Below are positions 518-62,725 of a DNA stretch of 64,000 nucleotides, one piece after another (the first letter of the stretch is position 1; each line of letters opens with the position of its first letter). The notes under the pieces are model-generated. The model saw only the letters and a list, made by a program, of their open reading frames with translations, did no database searches and was not told the DNA's origin. The translations under genes were made by a program, and so were the position numbers. This DNA is from a virus (Duplodnaviria; Caudoviricetes): positions 50,946 to 114,945 of IMG/VR virus record IMGVR_UViG_2940244548_000002. One strand, written 5' to 3'.

Positions 518-571
518 AGTATTAACTTAGTGAATATAATATGATTTCGTTAAATATAAACAGTTACAGTT

Positions 572-1924
572 ATGGGATTACTTTTAGGAAGTGGCTCAAC
601 TAAGCCACAATACCCCTATGATATGTGGTATGGCGTACAAGGGGATTTTACCAGCAGGGATTATAAACTTACTCGTGTTGGTAATTTGGATTTACATAAG
701 ACTTTGCCCATTCAAAAGAAAATCAAGCGGTTTGTAGAAAACCCTGATGGTTCGGTAAAGTATTATTTGCATCAAAACGATAGCCGTAAAAAGGAGAGTG
801 GAGCTGCTGCTATCCTTGATAGTACGGATGGAAATGTAATGCTTGAAAAGCCTGAGTATTATTTCCGCTTGGAGATTGATGGAACAAAATGGCTACGTGC
901 GTGGTCTGAGTATCCGCTGCCTGGCTTTACTAAGATGGAAAGAAAATCTATTTCTCCATGGTATGCAACTATTGATATAACAAACAGCGTTGCTGTTTCT
1001 GGTTGCTGGCTTACATGGGCTGGGGATAATATCGCTCGTGATGCAAATGGCATTGTGATATTGACAGCTAACGCTGCTCAATTCAGAGGTGGATCTGGAG
1101 CTGGTGATGCTGCCAAAGATGGCACATATAATTCTCAGCTTGGTATGGCACGAACATCTATCTCTAAGGCTGGAGTTCGTCCGTTGTGCAAAAATGGTAC
1201 TCATCATGGAGCTTACAGAGCTTACAATGAGTTAGCCTGGTTACAGCGGTGTGAATATGCCTCTCTCCATTGCCAGGACACATATAATGAAACTCTCACT
1301 TCTGAGGGCTACAAACAGGGTGGTTTAGGATCTGGCAGTGTTGTGGCTGGAGGAGAATGGAATACATGGGGAGCTTATAAGCCTTTTGTTCCTTGTGGTA
1401 CAACTGCTACACTCGGAAACAACACAGGTAAGGTAGCCTACACTATCAAAGGATGGACTGGTGGAGATAAAACCGTTCAGGTAACATCATACAGAGGCTT
1501 GGAGGTTCCATTTGAGTATTTGTATATGTTGGCTGATGATGTACTTATTTATCATGGAGCGGATAGATCAACGGCTTATGTGTGTGAGGATCCATCCAAA
1601 TTTACATCACACTCTGATAGTTCTACAGCAGTTCCTGTAGGATATGATCCTATCTCCGATCTGCCACGAACAAATGGTTATATCCTCCAGCTTACACATT
1701 CAGCTAAAACATACTCATTCCCTGAGACTGTTGGAGGTGCTGCTAATGCTGGAGGATGTGATTACTATTATCAACCTGTTACTGATGGTGGTTCAGGCTG
1801 GTATGGTGCCCTGTTGTCTGCTAATGCGTCTTCTGGGGCGAGTGCTGGGTTCGGTTTCCTGAACACGCTTAATCGCTCCTCGTACTCGTATGCGTACGTC
1901 GGGTTCCGCTTGTGCCGTTTTTAA
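572..1924 (+). CDS. DGR1 target: tail adhesin / receptor-binding protein with C-terminal CLec-type variable region
   Basis: C-terminus ...YVGFRLCRF encoded by VR1; homologous along its length to 59177..60580. Confidence 0.85.
   Translation: MGLLLGSGSTKPQYPYDMWYGVQGDFTSRDYKLTRVGNLDLHKTLPIQKKIKRFVENPDGSVKYYLHQNDSRKKESGAAAILDSTDGNVMLEKPEYYFRLEIDGTKWLRAWSEYPLPGFTKMERKSISPWYATIDITNSVAVSGCWLTWAGDNIARDANGIVILTANAAQFRGGSGAGDAAKDGTYNSQLGMARTSISKAGVRPLCKNGTHHGAYRAYNELAWLQRCEYASLHCQDTYNETLTSEGYKQGGLGSGSVVAGGEWNTWGAYKPFVPCGTTATLGNNTGKVAYTIKGWTGGDKTVQVTSYRGLEVPFEYLYMLADDVLIYHGADRSTAYVCEDPSKFTSHSDSSTAVPVGYDPISDLPRTNGYILQLTHSAKTYSFPETVGGAANAGGCDYYYQPVTDGGSGWYGALLSANASSGASAGFGFLNTLNRSSYSYAYVGFRLCRF
1803..1919 (+). 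repeat. DGR1 variable repeat (VR1)
   Basis: 117-nt ungapped match to 1990-2106; 13 of 15 mismatches are at TR adenines, the 2 others lie at the 3' (IMH) end. Confidence 0.95.
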
Positions 1925-1989
1925 CGGGGGCACGGACGGCACTGCAAAAACGATAATTGAAATAATGAAAATAAAAGGTTGCAACGGTC

Positions 1990-2106
1990 ATGGTGCCCTG
2001 TTGTCTGCTAATGCGAATAATGGGGCGAATGCTGGGTTCGGTATCCTGAACACGAATAATCGCTCCTCGAACTCGAATGCGAACATTGGGTTCCGCTTTT
2101 ACCGTT
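1990..2106 (+). ncRNA. DGR1 template repeat (TR1)
   Basis: 10 in-frame AAY codons; lies between VR1 and the RT gene. Confidence 0.95.
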
Positions 2107-2250
2107 ACAGGTTTTCCTTGAAAAAGAAAAGAAAATCAGACCGTTGTAACCATGCCTCACAGAGACTACTTGTAGTCGGCAAAATAATATGAATTAGATC
2201 GGTGTGAGTAAGGAATTGAAAGCTCTGATATAAACCAACGGCACATTTAT

Positions 2251-3315
2251 ATGGATGAGTTGTATTTTAAAGATAGTAAACGATTAAAGAATATTTATCC
2301 ATTAGTTTATGAAACATCTAATTTGGTAAGATCACAGTATAATGCACAAAAAGGAAAGGGCGTAAGAAAGGAAATAACCCGATTCAATAGCAATATCTGT
2401 GAAAACTTAGCCCACATATATGATATATTGGAAACTGAGAGCTACATACCTGGTGATTATCGTGTTAAAATCATCCAGGATCCCAAAGAGAGAACAATAA
2501 TGATAGCTCCGTTTTTCCCTGATCGGATCATTCACCATTGTATCATAAATGTTTTAGGCAATGTTTGGACTAAAGTTTTTATCCCTCAAACATACGCTTG
2601 TATCAAGGGGCGTGGAACCCATAAGTGTATGGAGGATATTCACAAAGCTCTGATAAGAGATAAGAAAGGTACTAAATACTGCCTAAAGATTGACATAAAG
2701 AAATTTTACGATAATGTAGATCACTCAGTTCTTAAAAAGATCATCCGCTATAGAATAGCTGATGAACAAATGCTGAGGCTGTTGGACAAAGTTATAGATA
2801 GTAACGGTAGCGATAAGGGATTGCCTATAGGCAATTTTACAAGCCAGTACCTGGCTAATTTGTATTTAGCATACTTCGATCACTGGATCAAAGAGAATCT
2901 AAGGGTAAAGTATTATTTCAGGTACATGGATGATATTGTTATTCTGCACCAAAGCAAAGAGTTCCTACATGAACTACTTGATAAGATGGGGCTTTACCTT
3001 GGTGCTGAGTTAAAACTGGAGATAAAACAAAACTGGCAGATTTTCCCAGTTGATTCTCGTGGAATTGATTATGTAGGATTCAAACAAAACCATTACGGAA
3101 TCCTACTAAGAAAAGGGATTTTAACAAGATTCTACAAGAAATACAACCGTGTGAGGAAACAGTATAACATCTCCGATGAGACAGTAATTAAACACCTCTT
3201 TCCGTCTGAATATGGCTGGATAATCAGATGCTCTGAGGAACATAGTAAATTCATAATTAAAAATTGTATCGACAATGGAAAAGCAAAATGTATTAACTAT
3301 CGGGCTGCTGGCTGA
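2251..3315 (+). CDS. DGR reverse transcriptase (RT1)
   Basis: GLPIGNFTSQYLAN (DGR-type SQ motif), YFRYMDD catalytic motif, 354 aa, next to TR/VR. Confidence 0.95.
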   Translation: MDELYFKDSKRLKNIYPLVYETSNLVRSQYNAQKGKGVRKEITRFNSNICENLAHIYDILETESYIPGDYRVKIIQDPKERTIMIAPFFPDRIIHHCIINVLGNVWTKVFIPQTYACIKGRGTHKCMEDIHKALIRDKKGTKYCLKIDIKKFYDNVDHSVLKKIIRYRIADEQMLRLLDKVIDSNGSDKGLPIGNFTSQYLANLYLAYFDHWIKENLRVKYYFRYMDDIVILHQSKEFLHELLDKMGLYLGAELKLEIKQNWQIFPVDSRGIDYVGFKQNHYGILLRKGILTRFYKKYNRVRKQYNISDETVIKHLFPSEYGWIIRCSEEHSKFIIKNCIDNGKAKCINYRAAG

Positions 3316-3709
3316 TGAAAAGCCTGAGGTGTTCTTTGACTTATATAATGGGCAGGGAACTATTCTATATAACCATAACATTAAAGAGGTTCTGGTTATC
3401 AAGGATGAGGATGGAGGAACAGTAATAACAACTGACAGCAAGAAATCAAACGGTAAGATGTTTCAGTATGATAGTGTTCGGGTGGACTATCCGAAAACTG
3501 GAGATAACATCTTTAGCACGTTGATCACTGCAAAATATCCACCAGCAACAGAAAGCAAATTGCTCAATGAGTATCAATCTGCTGTAATGGGATTGCTGGA
3601 CAAAAGCCGTAAAAAGCCGTATGAAAATTTCCTCAAAGATCGTTTAGCAATTCGTGAGCAGATTGAGGCTGATTGTGAAACCTCTAACATCCCTATGGAG
3701 CATGAATAA
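3275..3709 (+). CDS. Conserved RT-adjacent protein A
   Basis: Homolog of 61918..62307 (LYN.N, Y.S.RVDYP, E.KLLN.Y, ADC...NIP). Confidence 0.75.
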   Translation: MEKQNVLTIGLLADEKPEVFFDLYNGQGTILYNHNIKEVLVIKDEDGGTVITTDSKKSNGKMFQYDSVRVDYPKTGDNIFSTLITAKYPPATESKLLNEYQSAVMGLLDKSRKKPYENFLKDRLAIREQIEADCETSNIPMEHE

Positions 3710-4097
3710 TATAGTCGATTTTGAAGATGATCCTATTATTGGATCTGCTGATGGAGATGATTTGTTTGATTGTGAATATTCAAGTGTTGATGCACTGATA
3801 AATGAGGTTATTGTTTTTACAGGAGTAAAGACAGATGTTCAAACTGAAAATGGTTTGCGAACACTTGTAGCCTTTGGAGAGGGATCTGCACGCTCAGCAT
3901 TTTTCACAGAAAGCAAAAGATTAAAGGATGTTGTTTGTAATCCTGATCGGGTGTTTCCGTTTCGTGCTATAATTAAAGTGGTTCGATTCGGCAATAACAC
4001 AGGATTCAAATTCTTTTCTCCCAGCAGTCCTATCACTCAACAGGACAAAGAAAATTTCGATTATTATAAACGTAACAAATATAAAAGAAATAGATAA
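3702..4097 (+). CDS. Conserved RT-adjacent protein B
   Basis: Homolog of 62312..62725 (V.T.NG.R, AFFT.SK.L, FPF..IIKVV); ATG at 3702 chosen as start. Confidence 0.75.
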   Translation: MNNIVDFEDDPIIGSADGDDLFDCEYSSVDALINEVIVFTGVKTDVQTENGLRTLVAFGEGSARSAFFTESKRLKDVVCNPDRVFPFRAIIKVVRFGNNTGFKFFSPSSPITQQDKENFDYYKRNKYKRNR

Positions 4098-4576
4098 TGG
4101 GAGAGGTTTTTCAAGGTGCAGAAAATATGCTAATGATCGTTGTGTTAGCCTGTATTATTGTTTTTATAGCAATGTGTGTAGATCTTGTTAGTGGTTTGCA
4201 TAAGGCTAAGCAACGCAAAGAGATCCGTAGCAGTTACGGATTAAAGCGATCTCTAAGTAAGTTTATCATGTATGAGGGCGGTATGCTAATAGCTTGTGGA
4301 GTAGATATATTGATCCACGTTTGCAAGCTGTTAAAGGTATTCCATTTGGATATTATCTATGGGATCCCGATTATCACCTGTTTACTTGGTATCTTTTTAC
4401 TGGTGGTAGAGTTTGTGAGTGTGCGAGAAAAAGCAGACGATAAAACAAAAACAGAAATTTCCAGGGTGGAGCAATTAGCAGCTAAAATGGTTAATAAGGA
4501 TGAGCTGGTAGGTGCTCTTACTCAGGCGATAATCAACGCTGGCAAAGGAGGTAATAGTGATGAAAGTTCTGATTGA
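4097..4576 (+). CDS. Phage holin family protein
   Basis: Three hydrophobic segments, D..SG..KA...S.GL.R and E..SVREK motifs, directly before amidase. Confidence 0.8.
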   Translation: MGEVFQGAENMLMIVVLACIIVFIAMCVDLVSGLHKAKQRKEIRSSYGLKRSLSKFIMYEGGMLIACGVDILIHVCKLLKVFHLDIIYGIPIITCLLGIFLLVVEFVSVREKADDKTKTEISRVEQLAAKMVNKDELVGALTQAIINAGKGGNSDESSD

Positions 4577-5144
4577 CAACGGACACGGTGTAAATACACC
4601 TGGTAAACGCTCTCCAGATGGTTCTCTGAGAGAGTACCTGTATGCAAGAGAAATAGCTGATAGAGTGGTATCCGAGTTGAAAAACAGTGGTATTGATGCT
4701 GAGCGTATTGTTAAGGAGGATGTTGATATATCTATCTCTGAGCGGTGTAAACGTGCGAATGCCATTTACAAAGCAACAGGAAAGAAAGCTATACTGATCT
4801 CTGTTCACTGCAATGCTGCTGGAAATGGATCCAGCTGGATGAATGCACGAGGCTGGAGTGTTCATGTTTCAACCAACGCCTCCAAAAAGAGTAAGGAGCT
4901 GGCTACTTGCTTTGCTAATATCGCTATGAGTATGGGGTTAAAGGTTCGTAAACCATTACCGAATCAACCCTACTGGGTGCAAAACCTTGGTATTTGTCGT
5001 GATACGAATTGTCCAGCTATTTTAGTTGAGAATTTTTTTATGGATAACAAACAGGATTGTGAGTTTCTTCTTTCTCCAGAGGGTAGAGATCAGATCGTGG
5101 ATCTACACGTAAATGCAATCCTCAAATACATCAAAGGAGTATGA
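4560..5144 (+). CDS. N-acetylmuramoyl-L-alanine amidase (endolysin)
   Basis: IDNGHG, SVHCNA, PAILVENFFMDN Amidase_3 motifs. Confidence 0.93.
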   Translation: MKVLIDNGHGVNTPGKRSPDGSLREYLYAREIADRVVSELKNSGIDAERIVKEDVDISISERCKRANAIYKATGKKAILISVHCNAAGNGSSWMNARGWSVHVSTNASKKSKELATCFANIAMSMGLKVRKPLPNQPYWVQNLGICRDTNCPAILVENFFMDNKQDCEFLLSPEGRDQIVDLHVNAILKYIKGV

Positions 5145-5728
5145 ATAAATATCTAATTTCAGCAATAGCTGTATTATTTCTGGCTGTAGGGCTATTGTCC
5201 TGGCAGTTGGATAGAACGAAAACAGAGAAAAAGCGACTATCAAGCAATCAGGAGGCTTTGCTTTCTGATATTGAATTTTATAAAACAGAGGCTGGAGATA
5301 ATGCTGCATCAGTTCAACGGCTGGAGCTTTCAAAATCGGAGCTGGAAAAGCATTGTGAGGATCTTACCCAAACAGTAAAGGATCTCAATCTTAAAGTTAA
5401 GCGGATCCAGGCAGCATCCACTACTGTTACCAAAACAGAGTATAAGATTCAAACGGTTGTAAAGGATAGTATAATTTATCGTGATGTTCCTGTGATTGTT
5501 CAATCCATAGTGTATAAGGATCCTTGGATAGATATAGATGGGGTTATTGATAGCTCTATGTTCTCTGGTAACATTAGTACCAGAGATACCTTAGTTCAAG
5601 TGATTCACCGAGTGCCTAAAAAGTTTTGGTTTATAAAGTACGGAACAAAAGCAATAAAACAGGAGGTGGTGAGTAAGAATCCTCATAGTAATATTGTGTT
5701 CACTGAATACATCGAATTGAAAAAATAA
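5141..5728 (+). CDS. Spanin-like / lysis accessory protein
   Basis: N-terminal TM helix then coiled coil, following the endolysin. Confidence 0.6.
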   Translation: MNKYLISAIAVLFLAVGLLSWQLDRTKTEKKRLSSNQEALLSDIEFYKTEAGDNAASVQRLELSKSELEKHCEDLTQTVKDLNLKVKRIQAASTTVTKTEYKIQTVVKDSIIYRDVPVIVQSIVYKDPWIDIDGVIDSSMFSGNISTRDTLVQVIHRVPKKFWFIKYGTKAIKQEVVSKNPHSNIVFTEYIELKK

Positions 5729-5756
5729 TTTTTCTTCATATATTTTTGTAGATCGG

Positions 5757-5790
5757 AACTGTCTTAGCTGTGAAGCTGGGGCAGTTTTTA
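5757..5790 (+). terminator. Intrinsic terminator after lysis cassette
   Basis: AACTGTCTTAGCT-GTGA-AGCTGGGGCAGTT stem-loop then T run. Confidence 0.75.
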
Positions 5791-5957
5791 TATTTGCTAT
5801 TTTATTTGTAATTTTGCATTACCGATAATCAAAATCGGTGTTGCATTAGAGAGATCCCTTTTTGCTTTCGGGTATTGGGGATCTCCTATTTTTAGTAAAA
5901 GTTCTACAATAGTTCTACGAAAAATAGAAAATCAAATGTAACTTATTGAATATCAGA

Positions 5958-5980
5958 GATAGAATAGAAGTTTCCTAAAC
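5958..5980 (+). other. att-like core of prophage 1 (tRNA-Arg(CCT) D-arm/anticodon fragment)
   Basis: GATAGAATAGAAGTTTCCTAAAC resembles GATAGAATAAGAATTTCCTAAAT in the tRNA at 6069; GTTCTAC direct repeats at 5901-5918 resemble integrase arm sites. Confidence 0.65.
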
Positions 5981-6068
5981 ATGCGCAAAACTAAGAGGCT
6001 GTAAAAGTAGATAGATTTTTTGGAGAGGTAAAATTTAGCATTAAAATAAGATTTAAAAAATGGCGTAA

Positions 6069-6140
6069 GCCCCTGTAGTTCAACGGATAGAATAAGAATT
6101 TCCTAAATTTTAGATAGCAGTTCGATTCTGCTCGGGGGTA
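6069..6140 (+). tRNA. tRNA-Arg (anticodon CCT), probable attL of prophage 2
   Basis: Cloverleaf: GCCCCTG/CGGGGGT acceptor, AGAAT-TTCCTAA-ATTTT anticodon arm, AGCAG-TTCGATT-CTGCT T arm; directly upstream of integrase. Confidence 0.92.
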
Positions 6141-6143
6141 CAC

Positions 6144-6176
6144 AAAGAGAGCTAACTTTCAAAAGTTGGCTCTTTT
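6144..6176 (+). terminator. Terminator after tRNA
   Basis: AGAGCTAACTT-TCAA-AAGTTGGCTCT hairpin plus T run. Confidence 0.75.
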
Positions 6177-6217
6177 CGTTTCAGCACTTTTGTTGCTATA
6201 AACGTATTTTTGCTGGC

Positions 6218-6249
6218 AATTGTGGTTCAATTGTGGTTCGTGGTTCAAT
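6218..6249 (+). repeat. GTGGTTC direct repeats (x3), putative integrase arm-type sites
   Basis: AATTGTGGTTC AATTGTGGTTC GTGGTTCAAT between tRNA and integrase start. Confidence 0.55.
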
Positions 6250-6272
6250 CCGAGCCAAATAAAAGTAAAGGT

Positions 6273-7625
6273 ATGGCAACAACATTTAAGGCGGTGGTAT
6301 TCCAACACCATAAAAAACAAGATGGTACATATAACGTTAAAATCCGTGTTACCCATAATCGGCAAAGGCGGTTACTGGCAACAAACATTTTTGTTACTAA
6401 GGAGGATTTAACCAGAGGCTTAAAAATAAAATCCCAGAATATACTTGATAATACCAAAGCCATTATTGATGGCTATATGCGTATTACAGCTACCATTAGC
6501 ATACAGGTAGCTAAAGATATGAACGTAGATGATGTATTAAAATACATAGATACCTACCAAGCTAATAATAAGGTATTCAAGTTGGATTTTATCAGCTATG
6601 CCGAAAAAATAACTAAGGAGCTGGAGGATACAGGGCGCAAAGGGAATAGCTTAATGTATAAAACTGTAGCCAATAGCTTAAAATGCTTTTTGGGCTATGA
6701 TACAATTGATATTTCAGAGATAAATGTACAATTCTTAAATGACTACTGCCAGTGGTTAAAAACCAAGCCAGCACGCAAAAACAGACCAGATAAGGATACT
6801 GGCAGGCGTATGCCCTCCCTTTATTTATCCACAATCAGAGCTATACATAATAGGGCAAAATCAGAGTTTAACGATGAAGATGCTGGGATAATTAACATAC
6901 CATTATCACCTTTCAAAAAGTTCAAAATACCAGCAGTACCAGTAAGTAGAAAAAGAGCATTAACTAAGGAGCAATTTACAAAGCTAATCAGCCACCCATA
7001 CGAGTTGGTAATGTATAGAGGCTTTAATAGGATGAATTTGGCAAAAGATGTTTTTTTGTTATCATTCGGGCTAATGGGTATGAATGCAGTTGATTTATTT
7101 GAGTGTACAAATTATGAGGGTGGTTATTTAAACTATAACCGAACAAAAACCAAAAACAGGCGTGCGGATGCTGCACGTATGGTAGTAAAAGTGCATCCAG
7201 AGTTAATGCCATTATTTGAGAAATACAGAGATAAAAAAGGGAAAAGGGTATTCTGTTTTTACCAATATTATTCGGATGCAAATACATTTTCAGCTGCAAT
7301 AAATAAAGGGCTAAAAAAGATTGGCGAAAAAATAGGGATAGCTGATTTTGAATTTTATGCAGCACGACATACATGGGCAACTCTGGCAACTAATAAAGTC
7401 GGTATTGCAAAAGATTTGGTGCATGAGGCATTAAACCATGTAGATGATAAAATGCGCATAACCGACATTTATATAGAAAAAGACTGGAGGCGTATTGATG
7501 ATGCCAATAAACAAATGCTGGAATATGTTGGGTTTAGCAAGGTAAATATTAAGGAGGAGATATACCAACGGAAGTTTAATAAACACCTCCCAAAAAGAGA
7601 GCACCCTATTTTTTCAGAGGAGTAA
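6273..7625 (+). CDS. int: Tyrosine integrase (Bacteroidota type with arm-binding and SAM-like domains)
   Basis: N-terminal VKIRVTHNRQRR arm domain; YNRTKT, YAARHTWAT, ALNH and TDIY catalytic residues; ATG 6273. Confidence 0.93.
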   Translation: MATTFKAVVFQHHKKQDGTYNVKIRVTHNRQRRLLATNIFVTKEDLTRGLKIKSQNILDNTKAIIDGYMRITATISIQVAKDMNVDDVLKYIDTYQANNKVFKLDFISYAEKITKELEDTGRKGNSLMYKTVANSLKCFLGYDTIDISEINVQFLNDYCQWLKTKPARKNRPDKDTGRRMPSLYLSTIRAIHNRAKSEFNDEDAGIINIPLSPFKKFKIPAVPVSRKRALTKEQFTKLISHPYELVMYRGFNRMNLAKDVFLLSFGLMGMNAVDLFECTNYEGGYLNYNRTKTKNRRADAARMVVKVHPELMPLFEKYRDKKGKRVFCFYQYYSDANTFSAAINKGLKKIGEKIGIADFEFYAARHTWATLATNKVGIAKDLVHEALNHVDDKMRITDIYIEKDWRRIDDANKQMLEYVGFSKVNIKEEIYQRKFNKHLPKREHPIFSEE

Positions 7626-8084: not shown

Positions 8085-8528
8085 TTATTTTTCTTGCCCC
8101 TCCAGCTGGGCTATTTTTTGTTTAAGAGTACCAATCTCCCTATTTAACTCCTCTATCATCATATCTTTACGTTGTAGCTCTGCATCTTTCTCTTTCACAA
8201 TGCTTGCAGGGTATAATTCCCCTTTGCTTATCATAGTCATTAATTGCTGGTAAAAAACATCAGCCCCCTCATTTACGACTTTTTTTGCCGTATCCATTTC
8301 TATCTGCTCATCTTTGAGCATCATATTTCCAATGCCAGTCATTAACCATGCAGGGTTAAGCCCAAAGCACTCCGACCACTTAGCAGCCGTTTTTTTACCA
8401 AACGATCTATGGTTAAGTAGTTTCTGTACAGTCTGTTGAGTAGAGCCAGTAAGTTCTGCAATTTGAACCTGTGTGATTTTCCGCTCTTTGAAAAAATCTT
8501 TTAATTTTTTTCTTTCTGTATCATCCAT
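8085..8528 (-). CDS. CI-like XRE repressor
   Basis: ITQVQIAELTGSTQQTVQKLLN HTH, NPAWLMTGIG, C-terminal coiled coil; divergent from cro-like gene. Confidence 0.8.
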   Translation of the reverse strand: MDDTERKKLKDFFKERKITQVQIAELTGSTQQTVQKLLNHRSFGKKTAAKWSECFGLNPAWLMTGIGNMMLKDEQIEMDTAKKVVNEGADVFYQQLMTMISKGELYPASIVKEKDAELQRKDMMIEELNREIGTLKQKIAQLEGQEK

Positions 8529-12545: not shown

Positions 12546-13499
12546 ATGGGAAATGATGCCAACAATGCTGGTGGTGCAAATACGCAGGCACAGCAACAAA
12601 CGCTTACTCAAAACGCAGTAGCATTAAAAAAATTTCAAGAGGAAACAACCGAGCAGGTACTAGCTAAGATTACCCTCATGCAAGAGGCTGGAGCTATCAA
12701 ATTACCTGCTAATTATTCGGCTGGCAATGCTGTTAAACTGGGATGGCTTTACCTTATGGATGTAAAGGACAGGAATAATAAGCCAGCTGTAGAGGTTTGT
12801 ACACGTGAAAGTATCTGTAATACCTTTTTTAAGATGGTTATTAAAGGGCTATCTGTAGCGAAAAAACAATGCTATTTCATTGTTTATGGCAACCAGCTAA
12901 CTCTACAGGAGGATTACAGAGGTAATCTAATGATAGCAAAGCGGGATACTCCTATAGCCGATGTAAACCCACAAGTAATTTACGAGGGCGACAATTTTGT
13001 ATATACGGTTGATGAAAATGGTTTGTACCAGCTGGTGAAGCATGAGACCAAACTAGAGAACATTAACATAGACAAAATTACTGGAGCTTATGCAGTAGTT
13101 ATAAATAAAGATGGCTCGAAAAGGCTGGAAATTATGACTATAGCACAAATCCGTAACTCATGGACGCAAGGTGCTGCTGGTGGCAAAAGTGGTGCGCATG
13201 TAAAGTTTACAGACCAAATGTGCAAGAAAACAGTTATCAACCGAGCATGTAAAATTGAGATTGGCAGCAGCGATGATAGCGCAATTATGGGAGATGATGA
13301 TGATGTGGATGCAGTACTAGATATACCAGTAGAAGAAAGAAAGAGCGCACTGGAGCAAGGTACTACAATAGTGGATGCAACGGATATTACCTATGAGGAA
13401 GTAAAAGAAACTCCAGAAGCTACACCTACAGCGGAAGCCCCCCAGCCAGAGCAAACAGCAAAAGGTACAAAAGGCACACAAAAAGATTGCCCAATTTAA
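12546..13499 (+). CDS. recT: RecT-family ssDNA annealing protein
   Basis: GLS..KKQCYFIVYG, ITGAYAV, DQMCKKTVINRACK motifs. Confidence 0.85.
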   Translation: MGNDANNAGGANTQAQQQTLTQNAVALKKFQEETTEQVLAKITLMQEAGAIKLPANYSAGNAVKLGWLYLMDVKDRNNKPAVEVCTRESICNTFFKMVIKGLSVAKKQCYFIVYGNQLTLQEDYRGNLMIAKRDTPIADVNPQVIYEGDNFVYTVDENGLYQLVKHETKLENINIDKITGAYAVVINKDGSKRLEIMTIAQIRNSWTQGAAGGKSGAHVKFTDQMCKKTVINRACKIEIGSSDDSAIMGDDDDVDAVLDIPVEERKSALEQGTTIVDATDITYEEVKETPEATPTAEAPQPEQTAKGTKGTQKDCPI

Positions 13500-13512
13500 T
13501 AAGTAGCAGATA

Positions 13513-14244
13513 ATGGAACTAAAGATACTAGGCAGCTCCTCACATGGGAACGGATATATACTGGAGGCAGATAATGAGGCTCTGATTATAGAGGCTGGTG
13601 TTAAGCTGCTGGAGGCAAAGAAAGCCATAAATTTCAACCTTTCCAAAGTAGTGGGCTGCTTAGTATCTCACCAACACAACGACCATGCTGGCAATGCTCT
13701 GGAGTATGCCAGTGCAGGTGTAATCGTGCTAGCCTTGCCAGAGGTAATAATAGCTAAAAATATAGAGCGGAATTATAAAACGATTGAGTTTGGGAAAGGG
13801 TACAAGATGGGTAATTTCAAGATACTACCTTTTGAGCTTATGCACGATGTACCATGTGCAGGTTTTTTAATTGAGCATCCCCAGAGCGGAAAAGTGCTGT
13901 TTATTACCGACACATACGCATGCAAGTATAGGTTTACAGGCTTATCCCACATACTTATCGAAGCCAATTACGCAGATGATATTTTAACAGATAATATACT
14001 GGAGGGTAGATTACCACAAGTAATGCGCAAAAGACTATTAACAAGCCACATGGAGATAGAGAGTACAAAAGAGTTTTTGCGCTCCAGCGACTTAAAACAG
14101 GTACGCAATATTGTATTACTCCATTTAAGCGATGGAAATAGTAACGAAAAGCGGTTTGTTGATGAGTGCAAGGCTGTTACTGGGAAAAAGGTAGTAGCTG
14201 CTAATGCAGGGATGGTTATACAATTTGGAGCTTTACCATTATGA
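13513..14244 (+). CDS. MBL-fold metallo-hydrolase (probable exonuclease partner of RecT)
   Basis: GSSSHGNGY, SHQHNDHA, HD, TDT, EANY, LHLS motifs. Confidence 0.85.
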   Translation: MELKILGSSSHGNGYILEADNEALIIEAGVKLLEAKKAINFNLSKVVGCLVSHQHNDHAGNALEYASAGVIVLALPEVIIAKNIERNYKTIEFGKGYKMGNFKILPFELMHDVPCAGFLIEHPQSGKVLFITDTYACKYRFTGLSHILIEANYADDILTDNILEGRLPQVMRKRLLTSHMEIESTKEFLRSSDLKQVRNIVLLHLSDGNSNEKRFVDECKAVTGKKVVAANAGMVIQFGALPL

Positions 14245-14403: not shown

Positions 14404-15006
14404 ATGGAAGTATTAAAAGCAAATAAGCAGGAGGTATTAAACTGCTTTAACAAGGCTGCACAAGGAAGTGATGCCAGAACAATACTAAAGCAACTCTTTG
14501 GAGATGCAGTATTTGAGTTTGATTACAGAAGTATAAAAACGGTTGAAGATGCCTATAAAGCTATGGGTATAGACCAAGTAAACCCATTTTTCTCTAATAC
14601 CCCAAAATTCGGGTTGCCATTGCTTGATATGGCTCTGGCTTCCTCTGGAGCTCTATTTGATTTGTGGGTGGTATGTGCTGCCATAAATAACGGCAAATGG
14701 GTAGACCAAGACGGATGGGGATATTACCCTTACTGGGTGCTATACTCCAAAGAGGAGATTGCGGAAATGGGCGAGGCTGAACGTAAAAAGCAGAATATTT
14801 GCCTCCTTGCTGGTGTCACTGCGCATCATGCGGAGTTTGCGGGTGTGCGTGGAGCGTATGCGGGTCGTCGTGGCTCGTATTCGGCTACGTATGGAGGTTT
14901 TCCCTTGTGCCTGAACGACAGCGAAAGGGCTATTTACTGTGGAAATCAATTCAGAGAGCTCTGGTTTAAGTATTACGGATTTATTTTAAAGGAGGGGCAA
15001 AAATGA
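14404..15006 (+). CDS. Non-structural early protein, second (distal) target of DGR2
   Basis: Contains VR3 internally, about 31 codons before the stop; ATG 14404. Confidence 0.85.
   Translation: MEVLKANKQEVLNCFNKAAQGSDARTILKQLFGDAVFEFDYRSIKTVEDAYKAMGIDQVNPFFSNTPKFGLPLLDMALASSGALFDLWVVCAAINNGKWVDQDGWGYYPYWVLYSKEEIAEMGEAERKKQNICLLAGVTAHHAEFAGVRGAYAGRRGSYSATYGGFPLCLNDSERAIYCGNQFRELWFKYYGFILKEGQK
14798..14912 (+). repeat. Distal variable repeat (VR3) of DGR2
   Basis: 115-nt ungapped match to 60671-60785; all 16 mismatches at TR adenines. Confidence 0.95.
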
Positions 15007-15464
15007 TGTGGTTTCAATGTAAAGTTAGTTACGAGAAGATTGCCGAAAATGGCATGAATGTAAAAGTAACCGAGCCCTATTTAGTTGATGCTCTTAGCTA
15101 TACGGAGGCAGAGGCACGGATTATAGAGGAAATGCAGCCCTACATAAGCGGTGAGTTTACGATAGCCGATATTAAAAGAGCAAACTATGCAGAGATTTTT
15201 AATAGAGATGATGAGCAAGCAGACCGCTGGTGGGAATGTAAGGTAGAGTATATAACTCTGGATGAAAAAAGCGGTTCGGAAAAACGTACAGGGGTAAGGA
15301 TGCTGGTAAAAGCCACTGATTTAAAAAATGCCTATGATGAATTAATCATAGGTATGAAAGATACAATGGCTGATTACTGGGTTAAAAACATAAAGGAAAC
15401 ACCCATTATGGATATTTTCCCATACAGTGCGACAACCGAGCAGACAGAGGAGACTGGTAACTAA
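15003..15464 (+). CDS. DUF4494-like protein
   Basis: WFQCKVSYEK...YLVDALSYTEAEARIIEEM...IKETPIMDIF. Confidence 0.75.
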   Translation: MMWFQCKVSYEKIAENGMNVKVTEPYLVDALSYTEAEARIIEEMQPYISGEFTIADIKRANYAEIFNRDDEQADRWWECKVEYITLDEKSGSEKRTGVRMLVKATDLKNAYDELIIGMKDTMADYWVKNIKETPIMDIFPYSATTEQTEETGN

Positions 15465-15529
15465 TCAATAAAATGTACCACTGTGCTAGAGAAAATAGTA
15501 CAGTGGGCATAAAAAGGAGTGATTTTTTA

Positions 15530-16306
15530 ATGAAAGGTTGGATTTGCTTACATAGACAATTTCTTAAATGGGAATGGGCGGGTGACCCTAACATGGTAGC
15601 TCTGTTTGTTTACCTACTCTTAATGGCAAACTCGGAAGAGGGCTATAAGTGGAAAGGAATTACATTAAATAGAGGCGAATTATTAACCAGCCTACCTAGA
15701 ATAAGCAAGGATACTGGCTTAACAATACAGACCGTGCGCACATGCTTAAATCGGTTAAAATCAACAGGCGAAATAACAGACAAAACAACAAACAAATTTA
15801 GGGTAATAACTATCTGTAAATATGGAGATTATCAAGACTTCAACAAAAAGGATAACAGCCAAACTAACAGGCAAACTAACAGCCAGCCAACAGGCAAGCA
15901 ACATCCAACTAACATCATTCAACAAAATAACAATATAACAAGTGATAACAATAATAATGATAGTATGAATGATTTAGAATTGATGTTTGAGGATTTTAGG
16001 AAAGCCTATAAGGGTACAAAAAGAGGCTTTAAGCTGGAGTTTGAGAACCTAAAAAAGAAACGCCCGAAAGATTGGCGGGAAGTTGTGCCAAAGTTAATGC
16101 CTGCATTGGAGCGATTGATAGAGTGGAGAGAGCAGGCGCAGAGTGCTGGAAAATTTGTGCCAGAGTGGGCAATGCTGCAAACGTGGATTAACCAGAGTAG
16201 ATGGGAAAGTGAATTAGAAACAATTAACGAAAATGGAAGCAATAAAACTGGATACAATAATAAGGAGAATGGAGCGGGAGCACCAAACTATGACGAAGAG
16301 TTTTGA
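15530..16306 (+). CDS. Phage replication initiator (lambda O-like) with internal origin
   Basis: GWICLHRQ..W, LLLMAN, RGELLTS HTH; 12-bp iterons in the middle of the gene. Confidence 0.8.
   Translation: MKGWICLHRQFLKWEWAGDPNMVALFVYLLLMANSEEGYKWKGITLNRGELLTSLPRISKDTGLTIQTVRTCLNRLKSTGEITDKTTNKFRVITICKYGDYQDFNKKDNSQTNRQTNSQPTGKQHPTNIIQQNNNITSDNNNNDSMNDLELMFEDFRKAYKGTKRGFKLEFENLKKKRPKDWREVVPKLMPALERLIEWREQAQSAGKFVPEWAMLQTWINQSRWESELETINENGSNKTGYNNKENGAGAPNYDEEF
15761..15960 (+). repeat. Origin iterons (approx. CTAACAGGCAAA, 12-bp period) plus A-rich tract
   Basis: TCAACAGGCGAA ATAACAGACAAA at 15761; ATAACAGCCAAA CTAACAGGCAAA CTAACAGCCAGC at 15852. Confidence 0.7.
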
Positions 16307-59176: not shown

Positions 59177-60580
59177 ATGGGTTTATTGATTGGTGTGGGG
59201 AATACAACCCCACAATTTCCATACAATTCACTTTGGTATGGAATAAAAATTAACCTCAAAAACACAGGCAAGAGTACGGATGATGGTAAACTGGAGCGGG
59301 TTGGAAACTTAGACCTGCACAGAAGTTTGCCAGTGCATAGCCGTATTAAACGCTTTGTAGCTAAAGAGGATGGAACAGTAAATTATTGGCTTGGAGCTAA
59401 TGACAGTACATTAAAAGAGGGCGGTGGTGCTGCAAAGCTAAATGCTGTAGATGGCAATGTAATGCTTTACAAACCCGATTACTGGAGGCGAATAGAGTTT
59501 GATGGTGATTACATGCTGGTTGCTGTTAGTGAGGTAGAATTACCGGGATTTACTTATATGAAAGAGAGCGCACGTAGTCCGTGGTTAGCTACTCTTGATA
59601 GGGTAAATAACAAGGCTGTTAGTGCATCCTTTTTGCAATGGAATACTGATGGCTCAATAAAAAGAGATGGTACTACAGGTTTACCTGCTTTGACCGATAA
59701 TGCTGCTGACTTTAGAGGAGGCAATAATACAGCTGGCAATGACAATACAGTAAAGACACAACTGGGTATGCCTGCAACATCCATTACCAAAGCAACTGCA
59801 CGTACAAGATGCAAAGCCATTAACGCAAAATGGCATCTTGGTGGCTATCGGTTCAGAGAGGAAATGTCTTGGCTTATGGCTATTGAGTTTGGTACTCTGG
59901 ATTCACAAGCTGCCTACAATGCAGCAAAAACAGCAGATGGATATGCACAGGGAGGGCTTGGTAATGGTACTTATGTTGTTAGTGGAGAATGGAGTGCTTT
60001 TAATGGCTATTATCCTTTTATCCCATGTGGTGTAACAGCAAAACTGGGTAATAACACAGGTATTGTAGATTATGTTATTAAAGGCTGGACTACAGGAGTA
60101 GACAAAACGGTAAAGGTTGCCAGCTATAGAGGCTGGGAAGCTCCACAACAATACCTTTGGGATTTAAACGATGATGTTATTATCTGGCATGGTAAGCCTA
60201 GCGATGGTAACACATCTCTTTTCTATGTATGCGAGGATAGCAGCAAGTTTGTTACTCCAGCAGATACTTCTACAGATATACCTGATGGATACAAAGAAGT
60301 TGGAGCTTTGCCCAGAGCATCTGGCTATATTGTTTCTATGGCTTCTGGTAATGGTTGGACTTGCCCAGATAGCGTAACTGGAGGGGCTAGTAACAAAAAT
60401 TATTGTGATTATTATTGGTATCCTGCTGTTAGTGATACAGCTAACTGGGGTTGGTTTTGCCTCCTTGCTGGTGTCAGTGCGACTTCTGCGGAGGATGCGG
60501 GTGTGCGTGGAGCGTATGCGGGTACTCGTGGCTCGACTTCGGATACGCATGGAGGTTTTCCCTTGTGCCTTGATTTATAG
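59177..60580 (+). CDS. DGR2 proximal target: tail adhesin / receptor-binding protein
   Basis: Homolog of 572..1924; ends ...HGGFPLCLDL encoded by VR2. Confidence 0.87.
   Translation: MGLLIGVGNTTPQFPYNSLWYGIKINLKNTGKSTDDGKLERVGNLDLHRSLPVHSRIKRFVAKEDGTVNYWLGANDSTLKEGGGAAKLNAVDGNVMLYKPDYWRRIEFDGDYMLVAVSEVELPGFTYMKESARSPWLATLDRVNNKAVSASFLQWNTDGSIKRDGTTGLPALTDNAADFRGGNNTAGNDNTVKTQLGMPATSITKATARTRCKAINAKWHLGGYRFREEMSWLMAIEFGTLDSQAAYNAAKTADGYAQGGLGNGTYVVSGEWSAFNGYYPFIPCGVTAKLGNNTGIVDYVIKGWTTGVDKTVKVASYRGWEAPQQYLWDLNDDVIIWHGKPSDGNTSLFYVCEDSSKFVTPADTSTDIPDGYKEVGALPRASGYIVSMASGNGWTCPDSVTGGASNKNYCDYYWYPAVSDTANWGWFCLLAGVSATSAEDAGVRGAYAGTRGSTSDTHGGFPLCLDL
60453..60571 (+). repeat. DGR2 variable repeat (VR2)
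   Basis: 119-nt ungapped match to 60668-60786; all 14 mismatches at TR adenines. Confidence 0.96.
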
Positions 60581-60667
60581 GGCAATGCGTGGCGTTTTTT
60601 TGAACACATGGGTGTGTTTCAATACAAAGTTTCTTTGAAATAATAATAAAACGGTTTACGGAGATGC

Positions 60668-60786
60668 GGTTTTGCCTCCTTGCTGGTGTCAATGCGAATA
60701 ATGCGGAGAATGCGGGTGTGCGTGGAGCGAATGCGAATAATCGTGGCTCGAATTCGGATACGAATGGAGGTTTTCCCTTGAACCAT
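60668..60786 (+). ncRNA. DGR2 template repeat (TR2)
   Basis: Nine in-frame AAT codons; template for both VR2 and VR3. Confidence 0.96.
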
Positions 60787-60904
60787 TACGGTTTTCCTTT
60801 AATGCGAGAACTATTCTTATCTCCGTAAACCTTGCCACTTGGCAAAATAATACGGTTAAAATAAAGTGCTGGTAGGCTTTATGCTCGAAAGCTCTTATTA
60901 GACA

Positions 60905-61912
60905 ATGGCACAGAGAATATATAATTGTTACTGGAAAGTATGCGACCCACAAAATGTATTACATGCAACATATAATACAGTAAAGGGCAAAAAGCGTAGG
61001 CATGATGTTCAACGCCTATTAAACGGCAATTACATACAATCCGTTACAGATGTATGGGAGATGTTGGAGAAGCAAACCTATGTGCCAAGTAAATATCACA
61101 CGAAAATTATCAACGATGGTAAAGAACGTAGGCTTATTATAGCTCCTCTATACCCAGATAGGATAGTACACCATTGTTTGATTGATGTGATTGAGAATGA
61201 TTTAAGGAAACTATTTATTGCAAACACCTATGCCTGTATAAAAGGGCGTGGAATGCACAGCTGCTTATACTCTTTGAATAAGGCTCTACAAAGAGATAAG
61301 AGAGGTACTAAATATTGCTTAAAACTCGACATACGGCATTATTACGATAGTATTGTGCATGATATACTGAAAGATATTATTGCGCATAAAATCGGAGATA
61401 AACAAATGCTCTGGTTAATAAATACAATAATTGATAGTACGGAGGGTGGTATCGGTTTGCCAATAGGTTTTTTAACTAGCCAGCATTTTGCTAACCTTTA
61501 TTTAACTCCTTTTGACCACTGGGTTAAGGAGGTATTGAGGGTAAGATATTATTATCGGTACATGGATGATATGGTAATATTGAGTGATAGCAAGGATAAA
61601 CTACATACCATACTGGATAGAATAAGAGAGTACTTACAGGAAAGGCTACAGCTAAAAATAAAAGATAATTGGCAGATATTCCCTGTAGATGCACGCTCTA
61701 TAGACTTTGTGGGCTATAAAAGCAACCACTATAATATACTAGTCCGAAAGAGTATTTTATACAGGTATTGGAAAAAGTTACACAAGGTTGCCAAAAAGTA
61801 TGGGTTTATTGATGAGACTATAATAAAGAAAGAGTTAGCTGCCCACTGGGGATGGCTTTTGCATTGCAGTGAGGAGCATAAAAATAAAATATTTGAAATT
61901 TCTAAAATGTAA
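60905..61912 (+). CDS. DGR reverse transcriptase (RT2)
   Basis: GLPIGFLTSQHFAN, YYRYMDD; homologous to RT1. Confidence 0.95.
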   Translation: MAQRIYNCYWKVCDPQNVLHATYNTVKGKKRRHDVQRLLNGNYIQSVTDVWEMLEKQTYVPSKYHTKIINDGKERRLIIAPLYPDRIVHHCLIDVIENDLRKLFIANTYACIKGRGMHSCLYSLNKALQRDKRGTKYCLKLDIRHYYDSIVHDILKDIIAHKIGDKQMLWLINTIIDSTEGGIGLPIGFLTSQHFANLYLTPFDHWVKEVLRVRYYYRYMDDMVILSDSKDKLHTILDRIREYLQERLQLKIKDNWQIFPVDARSIDFVGYKSNHYNILVRKSILYRYWKKLHKVAKKYGFIDETIIKKELAAHWGWLLHCSEEHKNKIFEISKM

Positions 61913-61917: not shown

Positions 61918-62307
61918 ATGAATGACAGATTAAGTAAAGGGATACGTAGCGATGAGCTACAGCCCACATTCGATGTTATCGACAAACTGAAAGGTACAAC
62001 GCTTTACAACTATAACCAGCACTGGGTAGAAGTAGAGCAAGAAGATGGTAAAAAGGCAAAAAAGAATGAGTATAATAGCCTTAGAGTTGATTATCCAGTA
62101 AATGCCAATACCGTTTTTGGCACTCTTCTTACAGCGGTTTATCCAGAGAATGAAGAGCAAAAGTTACTCAACGATTACAATGCAGCCATTGCTGGTATTG
62201 AGCCAGAGGAGAAAAAGCAGCCGTATTTAGATTTTCTAAATGCCCGCAAATCTTTTCGTGCAATGGTTGATGCAGATTGTACAACAAACAATATCCCATT
62301 GAAATGA
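61918..62307 (+). CDS. Conserved RT-adjacent protein A
   Basis: Homolog of 3275..3709. Confidence 0.75.
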   Translation: MNDRLSKGIRSDELQPTFDVIDKLKGTTLYNYNQHWVEVEQEDGKKAKKNEYNSLRVDYPVNANTVFGTLLTAVYPENEEQKLLNDYNAAIAGIEPEEKKQPYLDFLNARKSFRAMVDADCTTNNIPLK

Positions 62308-62311
62308 TAGT

Positions 62312-62725
62312 ATGGGAGCGGAAACATTTGATTTTGCAGACCTTCCACTGCAAGGGGAGGCTGCAAGCTCTACAATGCCCAGCGGTGATTATCCCTCTAT
62401 TGATGAGGTAATAAATAAACCGATATGGGTTACTGGTTTTACCAATAATGTAGAGACTGCAAATGGCAACAGATGTGTAGTTAATTTTAAGTGGGAACTG
62501 GAGGAGGCAGAAACAGCCTTTTTTACATCCTCTAAAAAGCTAATATCTGTGCTAACCAATGCGGGCATACGTTTTCCTTTTCATACAATAATTAAGGTGG
62601 TGTTCATCCGTGAAATGGCTTCTTTCGTTTTTCGCAGTAGTAAAGAAGCAATTTCACAGGAGGACATGGATAGCCTTAATATGTATTTAATTAAGAAACG
62701 TAGTTATTTGAAACAAAGAAGATAA
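62312..62725 (+). CDS. Conserved RT-adjacent protein B
   Basis: Homolog of 3702..4097. Confidence 0.75.
   Translation: MGAETFDFADLPLQGEAASSTMPSGDYPSIDEVINKPIWVTGFTNNVETANGNRCVVNFKWELEEAETAFFTSSKKLISVLTNAGIRFPFHTIIKVVFIREMASFVFRSSKEAISQEDMDSLNMYLIKKRSYLKQRR

What the first reader, a model, noticed from the sequence alone, without database searches (positions are those of the whole stretch)
14404..15006. One DGR, two targets: TR2 also diversifies a non-structural early gene 45.9 kb away
Seen: 14798-14912 aligns without gaps to TR2 60671-60785 (offset 45,873) with 16 mismatches, every one at a TR adenine, in the same frame as VR2; all nine AAT codons are changed (T,H,H,F,Y,G,R,Y,Y), mostly differently from VR2. 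The gene is about 200 aa, has no signal or TM segment, sits between the RecT/MBL genes and the replication initiator, is unrelated to the adhesin outside the VR, and the VR is internal (about 31 codons follow). Nine AAT codons allow 15^9, about 4e10, variants. Inference: the phage hypermutates an intracellular binding surface expressed early, for example an anti-defence or host-takeover binder. From memory, distal non-structural DGR targets have been reported in some gut Bacteroidota phages (Quimbyviridae), so novelty must be checked; the function of this target is unknown to me.
Basis: partly seen in the sequence, partly recalled or inferred. Interest (0 to 1): 0.92.

Follow-up and report, generated by a model that had tools for sequence, protein, structure and literature searches.

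The report
Second, early-gene target of phage DGR

Summary
Confirmed. Window 14798-14912 aligns without gaps to TR2 (60671-60785). It has 16 mismatches, all at template adenines (P about 4e-13), in frame in a 200-aa ORF (14404-15006).

The gene lies in the early operon of prophage B, in the order SbcC, RecT, MBL hydrolase, target, DUF4494, DnaD-like. It resembles the tail target only inside the VR.

- The tandem sister prophage A has the same layout. Each small gene's VR follows its own TR at non-adenine sites: 65/65 and 64/65 against the cognate TR, 42/65 against the other TR.
- In 76 orthologues, variation is concentrated on ten VR codons.
- Phages Versailles and BI-TP1 (LoVEphage-like) show the same adenine-only distal VR.
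- In related genomes, short-VR members of the family are the RT-adjacent targets of DGR cassettes inside prophage early regions.
- The family has about 4,900 clusters at 50% identity, no Pfam or PADLOC annotation, and no recognisable CLec fold in two AlphaFold models.

Prior art: Benler 2021 (Quimbyvirus) and Dahlman 2025 report distal, non-structural second VRs. This scan has also met the arrangement several times on other DNA.

Verdict: a new member of a known kind. An intracellular counter-defence or host-takeover role is plausible but untested.

The parts
14404..15006 (+). Second DGR target gene: 200-aa protein with no signal peptide, family phrog_11581, no Pfam domain
   Evidence: ORF list. 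Full-length match to phrog_11581 at 5e-29, and no Pfam hit. 102 homologues. ATG 14404 agrees with the N-termini of homologues.
14798..14912 (+). VR3: 14798-14907 is the TR-homologous stretch, with 13 substitutions at template adenines. 14908-14912 is the VR-specific 3' boundary shared with VR2.
   Evidence: 65/65 identity to TR2 at non-adenine template sites, against 42/65 to TR1. A content is 0.09 in the VR and 0.33 in the rest of the gene.
60671..60785 (+). TR2, the template repeat (26 A in 115 nt; nine AAT codons)
60653..60831 (+). TR2 with its flanking 13-nt perfect inverted repeat (60653-60665 pairs with 60819-60831). A counterpart flanks TR1 (1977-1989 / 2139-2151, one mismatch).
59177..60580 (+). 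Primary DGR2 target: a 467-aa tail protein (phrog_5302) with VR2 at 60456-60570 at its extreme C-terminus
   Evidence: 14 mismatches to TR2, all at adenines.
60905..61912 (+). DGR2 reverse transcriptase (335 aa)
   Evidence: RVT_1 at 1e-18; phrog_1423 at 1e-105.
61918..62725 (+). Two small ORFs directly after the RT. Both are conserved after RT1 as well (3275-4097). They are candidate accessory genes; no Avd was recognised.
   Evidence: tblastn gives 37-38% identity to the ORFs after RT1. No Pfam hit. Lead from note e1-5865277.
12546..14244 (+). Upstream neighbours in the same operon: RecT (12546-13499) and MBL-fold hydrolase (13513-14244)
   Evidence: No terminator-like site between 14244 and 14404 on the + strand.
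15003..16306 (+). Downstream neighbours: DUF4494 (15003-15464), whose ATG overlaps the target's TGA as ATGA, and a DnaD-like replication initiator (15473-16306)
572..3315 (+). DGR1 of the tandem sister prophage A: tail target 572-1924 with VR1 1803-1919, TR1 1990-2106, RT1 2251-3315. Its own distal VR ('VR4') lies outside the window at contig C3:55991-56099, in a 189-aa paralogue of the small target.

Best explanation
VR3 is a genuine second recipient of mutagenic retrohoming by DGR2 of prophage B. TR2 RNA is copied by the RT (60905-61912), which misincorporates opposite template adenines. The cDNA replaces either VR2, at the tip of the tail protein, or VR3, 45.9 kb away in the integrated prophage. 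In the circular phage form that distance is roughly 13 kb by my estimate. VR3 shares with VR2 both the TR-homologous stretch and the VR-specific 3' boundary. The recipient is a small protein without a signal peptide, encoded in the early recombination/replication operon. About ten solvent-exposed codons of it are randomised, mostly AAT to NNT, giving 15 possible residues per codon. Shown here: the adenine-only TR/VR relation, the reading frame, the specificity of each VR for its own TR, the operon position, the family membership, and hypervariation of the same codons in orthologues. Inferred: that the site is still being diversified in this particular prophage (my estimate 0.7). Also inferred: that the protein works inside the infected cell as a variable binder of a host or rival-phage factor, in counter-defence or host takeover (my estimate about 0.4).
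For: The mismatches are adenine-only, P 3.5e-13, and in frame. VR2 and VR3 are the only two VR copies of TR2 in the 4.58-Mb genome. Cognate specificity in two collinear tandem prophages: VR3 is 65/65 against TR2 and 42/65 against TR1; VR4 is 64/65 against TR1 and 42/65 against TR2. The two small proteins are only 32% identical, and TR1 and TR2 match at 61 of 88 positions. In 76 orthologues of 192 aa, ten VR columns carry about 3 bits of entropy each (10-15 residue types) while the rest of the protein is nearly invariant. Eight of those columns coincide with TR2 AAT codons. The closest relative, P0002, differs in the C-terminal half almost only at those codons. Phages Versailles and BI-TP1 have a distal VR at the same place in the homologue, and it differs from their TR only at adenines. 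In relatives the family is the RT-adjacent DGR target: G152:C22 (three targets, core mismatches 12/12, 16/16 and 14/14 at A), G152:C9 and G030. These cassettes sit inside prophage early regions, next to a helicase-primase, a sliding clamp, a RecE-like exonuclease and an EndoVII/Lar-like gene. Operon position in this window. Published precedent.
Against: There are no population or read data for this exact element. Current activity is therefore inferred from the lack of drift and from relatives. No significant hairpin follows VR3 (z = -0.02), and no Avd was recognised; both features are important in the BPP-1 paradigm but are not universal. No CLec fold was recognised in two AlphaFold models (best Z 4.0 and 3.5), so the binding-surface idea rests on analogy with the VR of the tail protein. 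The intracellular role rests only on gene position and the lack of a signal peptide. Residues 76-94 are fairly hydrophobic.
Confidence: 0.8

Rival explanations
1. Frozen relic: VR3 was written by the DGR in the past but is no longer a competent recipient, so only the tail VR is diversified today.
For: There are no population data for this element and no significant downstream hairpin. The sister VR4 has one or two non-adenine differences from TR1. Decayed loci exist in relatives: G144 keeps a TR-like copy but has no RT, and G084 has a homologue without an RT.
Against: VR3 has zero differences from TR2 at 65 of 65 (core) non-adenine sites, as does the primary VR2. VR1, the primary VR of DGR1, also carries one non-adenine difference, so VR4 is no worse than a primary VR. 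VR3 keeps the VR-specific 3' boundary of VR2. The RT is intact. Orthologous VRs are hypervariable across samples.
Confidence: 0.12
2. The small protein is a virion or extracellular component, for example an accessory receptor-binding or decoration protein, that merely happens to be encoded in the early region. The second target would then serve adsorption, like the first.
For: Its VR is the same module as the tail protein's VR (77% identity over 39 aa). The Versailles homologue is annotated 'tail protein'. Other two-target phage DGRs (Bacuni, Toutatisvirus) diversify two adhesin-like proteins.
Against: The 'tail protein' label most likely comes from VR similarity alone: phrog_11581 matches the tail target only at aa 412-448. 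There is no signal peptide. The gene is translationally coupled within the RecT/MBL/DUF4494/DnaD operon. It occupies the same early slot in at least four phage lineages, and in some the whole DGR sits in the replication module with no tail target nearby. Benler 2021 and Dahlman 2025 also read it as non-structural.
Confidence: 0.12
3. The protein is a prophage-encoded sensor or exclusion factor directed against other phages. It would be a variable recognition module that protects the lysogen, not a counter-defence factor used during the phage's own lytic growth.
For: Cellular DGRs have been linked to conflict systems (papers listed). The host carries two related tandem prophages, each with its own allele.
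Against: The gene lies downstream of the divergent repressor/early-regulator region (8085-8528 on the minus strand; 8961 on the plus strand), inside the lytic early operon, and is not a separately expressed moron. No PADLOC family matches any of 41 members.
Confidence: 0.1
4. The resemblance is due to chance, or the repeat is an assembly artefact.
For: None found.
Against: P about 4e-13. The repeat is in frame at the position where all family members carry their variable patch. The same layout is found independently in prophage A, Versailles and BI-TP1.
Confidence: 0.01

Closest known systems
Distal second DGR target of Quimbyvirus / LoVEphage (Benler et al. 2021, PMC8008677; also the four 'double-VR' induced prophage species of Dahlman et al., Nature 2025, PMC12629997)
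   Same: Same protein family: BI-TP1 gp84 and the LoVEphage hits are 32-34% identical over 94% of the query, E as low as 7e-14, and the target matches phrog_11581 over its full length. One TR serves both a tail-module VR and a distal VR in this small protein, which has no signal peptide. Differences from the TR are adenine-only. The published reading is also non-structural.
   Different: The neighbourhood differs. In LoVEphage/BI-TP1 the gene sits among DNA methyltransferases and a tRNA ligase. Here, and in Versailles and prophage A, it sits between the RecT/MBL recombination genes and the replication initiator. The Quimbyvirus RT is described as frameshifted across three ORFs, whereas this RT is a single intact ORF. 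The phages are otherwise unrelated at the DNA level.
Bacteroides phage Versailles (ON453897), gene product WAK79127
   Same: Same synteny: SbcC, RecT-like, MBL hydrolase, (NinB), target, replisome organiser. 30% identity over the full length. Three repeat copies, with the distal VR differing from the TR only at adenines.
   Different: The record annotates the protein as 'tail protein', probably because of VR similarity. I found no paper that describes it as a DGR target; the papers found for Versailles contain no occurrence of 'DGR'.
Canonical phage DGR: Bordetella phage BPP-1 (mtd VR, avd, TR, brt)
   Same: Adenine-specific TR-to-VR information transfer; an AAY-rich TR; a VR-specific 3' boundary that differs from the TR; an RT next to the TR and the primary tail target.
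   Different: No Avd was recognised and there is no significant post-VR hairpin. There are two recipients. The second VR is internal to its protein (30 codons follow), and that protein is not a tail fibre and shows no recognisable CLec fold.
Other two-target phage DGRs: Bacuni phages (PMC8143477) and Toutatisvirus (bioRxiv 10.1101/2024.10.15.618418)
   Same: One TR with an adjacent VR and a remote VR.
   Different: In those phages both targets are adhesin-like or receptor-binding-like proteins (DUF1566 / fimbrial tip; DUF6273 CLec). Here the second scaffold is unrelated to the first and lies in the early operon.

Membership tests
DGR variable repeat (recipient of mutagenic retrohoming) | The VR differs from a cognate TR (almost) only at TR adenines | tested here: met
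   16 of 16 mismatches are at A, P 3.5e-13. 65/65 identity at non-A core sites.
DGR variable repeat (recipient of mutagenic retrohoming) | A DGR-type reverse transcriptase is encoded in the same element, next to the TR | tested here: met
   The RT at 60905-61912 starts 120 nt after TR2. RVT_1 1e-18, phrog_1423 1e-105.
DGR variable repeat (recipient of mutagenic retrohoming) | The VR lies in frame in an ORF, with template adenines at codon positions 1-2 (AAY codons), so that no stop codons arise | tested here: met
   Nine AAT codons, all in phase with ORF 14404-15006.
DGR variable repeat (recipient of mutagenic retrohoming) | A VR-specific 3' boundary (IMH-like) that is shared by the VRs and differs in the TR | tested here: met
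   VR2 and VR3 both read TGTGCCT where TR2 reads GAACCA. VR1, VR4 and the Versailles VRs show the equivalent difference. Its function was not tested.
DGR variable repeat (recipient of mutagenic retrohoming) | A hairpin or cruciform just downstream of the VR (needed in BPP-1, not universal) | tested here: inconclusive
   DNA folds of the 71 nt spanning the VR ends: VR3 z = -0.02, VR2 z = -1.76.
DGR variable repeat (recipient of mutagenic retrohoming) | An Avd-type accessory protein | tested here: inconclusive
   Pfam does not hit the small ORFs around the cassette. Two conserved unknown ORFs follow both RTs.
DGR variable repeat (recipient of mutagenic retrohoming) | Ongoing adenine-specific variation within populations of this element | not testable with these tools
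Orthologous VRs in 76 relatives are hypervariable at the same codons.
phrog_11581 / Quimbyvirus-LoVEphage distal-target family | Full-length sequence homology | tested here: met
   phrog_11581 positions 1-197 of 200, E 5e-29. tblastn to LoVEphage, BI-TP1, PV4-TP1 and Versailles.
phrog_11581 / Quimbyvirus-LoVEphage distal-target family | The VR sits at the same position of the scaffold and is matched by a TR elsewhere in the phage | tested here: met
   alignments.
C-type-lectin-fold DGR variable protein (Mtd / TvpA / TaqVP type) | CLec fold with the VR forming the ligand-binding face | tested here: inconclusive
   Two AlphaFold models (pLDDT 75.8 and 84.0). Foldseek against PDB found nothing at E <= 0.001. 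The wide VIA-align search gave best Z 4.0 and 3.5, with no DGR variable protein in the lists. The PDB profile search and Pfam were empty. The VR itself is modelled with low confidence. Benler 2021 reports a CLec domain for the Quimbyvirus homologue.

The most novel reading that the evidence does not exclude
The small protein belongs to a very large, unannotated family of phage early proteins: about 4,900 clusters at 50% identity, 150-200 aa, no signal peptide. This family would be a dedicated class of DGR targets with a mainly helical scaffold that is neither a recognisable CLec fold nor an Ig fold. It comes in a short-VR form, served by its own DGR cassette inside the replication module, and a long-VR form that has taken over the tail-fibre VR module so that one TR serves both proteins. 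It would act inside the infected cell as a hypervariable, antibody-like binder of host defence or replication factors, occupying the slot where other phages keep Gam-, Abc2- or Lar-type anti-nuclease genes.
Probability: 0.25. Interest if true: 0.75.

Novelty: new member of a known kind. Interest (0 to 1): 0.4.

Why it matters
Phage DGRs are understood as host-range devices that vary tail fibres. A second, apparently cytoplasmic target implies that phages also apply targeted hypermutation to an intracellular interaction, which would be a new layer of the phage-host arms race. This instance does not establish that idea, which was published in 2021 and 2025, but it strengthens it in three ways. 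Two related prophages in one chromosome each keep the small gene's VR matched to their own TR. The family keeps the same early-operon slot across unrelated phage lineages. Some phages devote an entire DGR cassette to the family. Relatives that can be cultured and induced (Versailles in Bacteroides caecimuris, BI-TP1, PV4-TP1, the LoVEphage isolates) make the function testable by experiment.

Tried and rejected
- **VR3 as a copy of VR2:** rejected. The two differ at 13 sites, all at TR adenines, and 3 of 8 co-mutated internal sites agree, which is the chance level.
- **VR3 templated by TR1:** rejected (42/65 at non-A sites).
- **Homology with the tail target beyond the VR:** none.
- **Known domain or fold:** Pfam, PADLOC, the PDB profile search, Foldseek against PDB and the wide VIA-align search gave nothing above background. 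BFVD and the ESM Atlas returned only uncharacterised gut-phage proteins.
- **Population evidence for this exact element:** A 110-nt TR2 pattern with every adenine wildcarded found no match in metagenome contigs or viral contigs. Megablast of 25 kb of the prophage against the phage collection found nothing.
- **Hairpin after the VR:** not significant.
- **Sigma-70 promoter scan:** at shuffle level, and not appropriate for Bacteroidota.
- **attR of prophage B:** no exact repeat of 16 nt or more in the 14 kb beyond the window. The roughly 13 kb circular distance is therefore an estimate made by analogy with prophage A.

Full report
**1. Observation**

Window 14798-14912 and 60671-60785 align without gaps. 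There are 16 mismatches, and in each one the 60.7-kb copy carries an adenine. That copy (TR2) has 26 A in 115 nt, so the chance that 16 random positions are all A is 3.5e-13. A core 18-mer occurs exactly three times in the window and never in 100 shuffles. The repeat finder groups 14798, 60456 and 60671 into one family. In the whole 4.58-Mb genome, TR2 has just these two VR-like copies.

VR3 is in the same codon phase as VR2. All nine AAT codons are changed, to T, H, H, F, Y, G, R, Y, Y, and one GAT becomes GCT.

The last three differences (VR TGTGCCT against TR GAACCA) are identical in VR2 and VR3. The other VR/TR sets examined show an equivalent difference, and in DGR1 it includes a non-adenine change. 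I therefore read them as the fixed VR-specific boundary, not as mutagenesis. That leaves 13 mutagenic substitutions.

VR2 and VR3 carry the same base at 3 of the 8 internal adenine sites that are changed in both, which is the chance level. VR3 was therefore written from the TR independently of VR2.

**2. The gene and its setting**

The window is contig C3:97860-161859 of a bacterial genome. PHROG and Pfam scans and ARAGORN give the following map.

- 1-5.7 kb is the tail, DGR1 and lysis end of prophage A.
- A tRNA-Arg(CCT) lies at 6069-6141.
- Prophage B then runs: integrase (6210), divergent repressor (8085-8528, minus strand), LuxR/sigma-like regulator (8961), SbcC-like (10555), RecT (12546), MBL hydrolase (13513), the target (14404-15006), DUF4494 (15003, ATGA stop/start overlap), DnaD-like (15473) and DnaC-like (16233).
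- Later come ParB-methyltransferase, terminase, portal, head and tail genes, the DGR2 target (59177-60580), TR2, the RT (60905-61912), two unknown ORFs and an amidase.

The 200-aa protein has no signal peptide. Its most hydrophobic stretch (aa 76-94, Kyte-Doolittle 1.79) is amphipathic in relatives and is modelled as a buried helix. BLASTP similarity to the tail target is confined to aa 133-171.

**3. Independent replicate in the same chromosome**

TR1 of prophage A also has a distal copy, 43.8 kb upstream at C3:55991-56099. It lies inside a 189-aa paralogue (32% identity) of the small target.

Prophage A is collinear with prophage B at 30-70% protein identity, and its small gene sits in the same slot after the MBL hydrolase.

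At non-adenine template sites:

| VR | vs TR1 | vs TR2 |
|---|---|---|
| VR3 | 42/65 | 65/65 |
| VR4 | 64/65 | 42/65 |

TR1 and TR2 themselves match at 61 of 88 positions.

Each small gene's variable patch has therefore stayed matched to its own phage's template while the rest of the protein diverged. This is the signature of repeated homing. VR1, a primary VR, also carries one non-adenine difference, so VR4 is no more decayed than a primary VR.

**4. Relatives**

The protein matches phrog_11581 (unknown function) over its full length. It has homologues in LoVEphage records, BI-TP1, PV4-TP1 and Versailles.

In BI-TP1 and in Versailles the homologue carries a repeat that occurs twice more in the genome. 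The distal copy differs from the A-rich copy only at adenines.

BI-TP1 gp84 lies among methyltransferases and a tRNA ligase. That is the neighbourhood Benler et al. describe for the Quimbyvirus distal target. Versailles has this window's synteny.

A search of 5.8 billion proteins gave 102 homologues. Most are 192-aa proteins, each in its own 90% cluster, on contigs of about 59 kb. In 76 of them, ten VR columns carry about 3 bits of entropy each while the rest of the protein is almost invariant. The closest relative (77% identity) differs in the C-terminal half almost only at the AAT-templated codons.

**5. The family is itself a DGR target class**

In 170 species-level genomes of the host's family, 13 carry the small-protein family and 19 carry a related RT. 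Nine carry both. In seven of those nine the RT lies within roughly 0.3-1.5 kb of the small gene or genes.

I dissected three loci.

- G152:C22 has three tandem small genes, a duplicated TR and an RT. Core mismatches are 12/12, 16/16 and 14/14 at adenines. A helicase-primase lies next to the cassette and a head protease further on.
- G152:C9 and G030 each have two tandem small genes, then a TR, then an RT, again with adenine-only core differences.
- G030's cassette lies in a prophage early region, in the order integrase, repressor, anti-repressor, RecE-like exonuclease, EndoVII/Lar-like, targets, TR, RT, sliding clamp, primase-helicase.

G144 keeps a TR-like copy but no RT. G084, a complete genome, has a homologue and no RT.

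These members have a short VR of about 25 aa. The window's form has a 39-aa VR with the layout of the tail-fibre VR. A profile search of 1.84 billion representatives gives 4,882 hits (3,304 at E <= 1e-10), mostly 150-200 aa, with some tandem fusions. None of 41 members matches Pfam convincingly or PADLOC at all.

**6. Structure**

AlphaFold2 with the family alignment gives a mainly helical model for the window protein (pLDDT 75.8, pTM 0.69). The VR (138-165) is below pLDDT 50.

A short-form member folds better (pLDDT 84, pTM 0.78). It has an N-terminal helical bundle, a small beta region carrying the VR, and two C-terminal helices.

Foldseek against PDB finds nothing. The wide aligner's best matches are Z 4.0 and 3.5, with no DGR variable protein listed. 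BFVD and the ESM Atlas return only uncharacterised gut-phage proteins, including crAss-like and podovirus contigs. A CLec fold is therefore neither shown nor excluded.

**7. Mechanism**

Shown: the TR/VR relation, the reading frame, the shared VR boundary, an intact RT, a 13-nt perfect inverted repeat flanking TR2, specificity of each VR for its own TR, and hypervariation in orthologues.

Inferred: TR2 RNA is reverse-transcribed with adenine misincorporation, and the cDNA replaces VR2 or VR3. In the circular phage genome the two sites are roughly 13 kb apart; this is an estimate, because attR was not found.

The product is a small early protein with about ten randomised surface codons. The family's recurrent slot beside recombination nucleases, restriction-alleviation-like genes and replication genes, together with the methyltransferase and tRNA-ligase neighbourhood in LoVEphage, makes a counter-defence or host-factor binder the most likely role (about 0.4). 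This is guilt by association.

**8. Comparison with the literature, and novelty**

- Benler et al. 2021 described a Quimbyvirus DGR with a structural target and a distal non-structural target.
- Dahlman et al. 2025 reported four induced gut prophage species with a distal second VR near counter-defence genes.
- Bacuni phages and Toutatisvirus have two adhesin-like targets.
- Roux et al. 2021 note that remote targets are systematically missed in metagenomes.

This scan has also reached the same verdict on several other genomes. The finding is therefore a new member of a known kind.

I did not find three things described in the papers I read:
- the cognate-specific pair of tandem prophages;
- the RT-adjacent cassettes dedicated to this family inside replication modules;
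- the size of the family.

I cannot exclude that they are reported elsewhere.

**9. Verdict**

The DGR-target reading is well supported (0.8). Current activity is likely (about 0.7). The function is unknown, with an intracellular binder as the leading hypothesis. Interest 0.4.

Noticed in passing
window 1-6200, and contig C3:46.9-103.6 kb outside the window: Two collinear but divergent prophages (30-70% protein identity) are integrated in tandem at tRNA-Arg(CCT) (full tRNA at 6069-6141). Segments of 18-27 nt from the junction region are repeated at the left end of prophage A. Each prophage has its own two-target DGR.
   Followed up: partly
window 32131-35271 (+) and 36781-37572 (-): A 1046-aa minor-head/morphogenesis protein carries a C-terminal ADP-ribosyltransferase domain (PF03496; phrog_16625 'Bxa ADP-ribosyl transferase'). 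An ADP-ribosylglycohydrolase is encoded on the opposite strand in a minus-strand island that also holds a PAPS-reductase-like gene and a primase-like gene.
   Followed up: no
window 60653-60665 / 60819-60831 and 1977-1989 / 2139-2151: A 13-nt inverted repeat brackets each TR. It is perfect in DGR2 and has one mismatch in DGR1, and the sequences differ between the two DGRs. It may close the TR RNA into a loop.
   Followed up: partly
window 3275-4097 and 61918-62725: The same two unknown ORFs (37-38% identity) follow the RT in both DGRs, and no Avd was recognised. They are candidate accessory factors.
   Followed up: partly
L056 (G152:C22) 3625-6368: A DGR cassette with three tandem small-family targets, a duplicated TR (a 617-nt tandem duplication; TR copies at 4564 and 5181) and an RT, lying next to a helicase-primase. 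It is a DGR apparently dedicated to the small early protein.
   Followed up: partly
L027 (G144:C10), about 2000-2080 of the locus: An A-rich TR-like copy follows a tandem pair of small-family genes, but no RT is present downstream or elsewhere in that genome at E <= 1e-30. This looks like a decayed cassette.
   Followed up: partly
L002 (phage Versailles ON453897) 6001-6582: The homologue of the small target is annotated 'tail protein'. That label probably derives from VR similarity to the real tail target and is likely a mis-annotation.
   Followed up: partly
window 26570-27991: A ParB-like N-terminal domain is fused to a DNA methyltransferase (phrog_498) just upstream of the terminase genes.
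   Followed up: no
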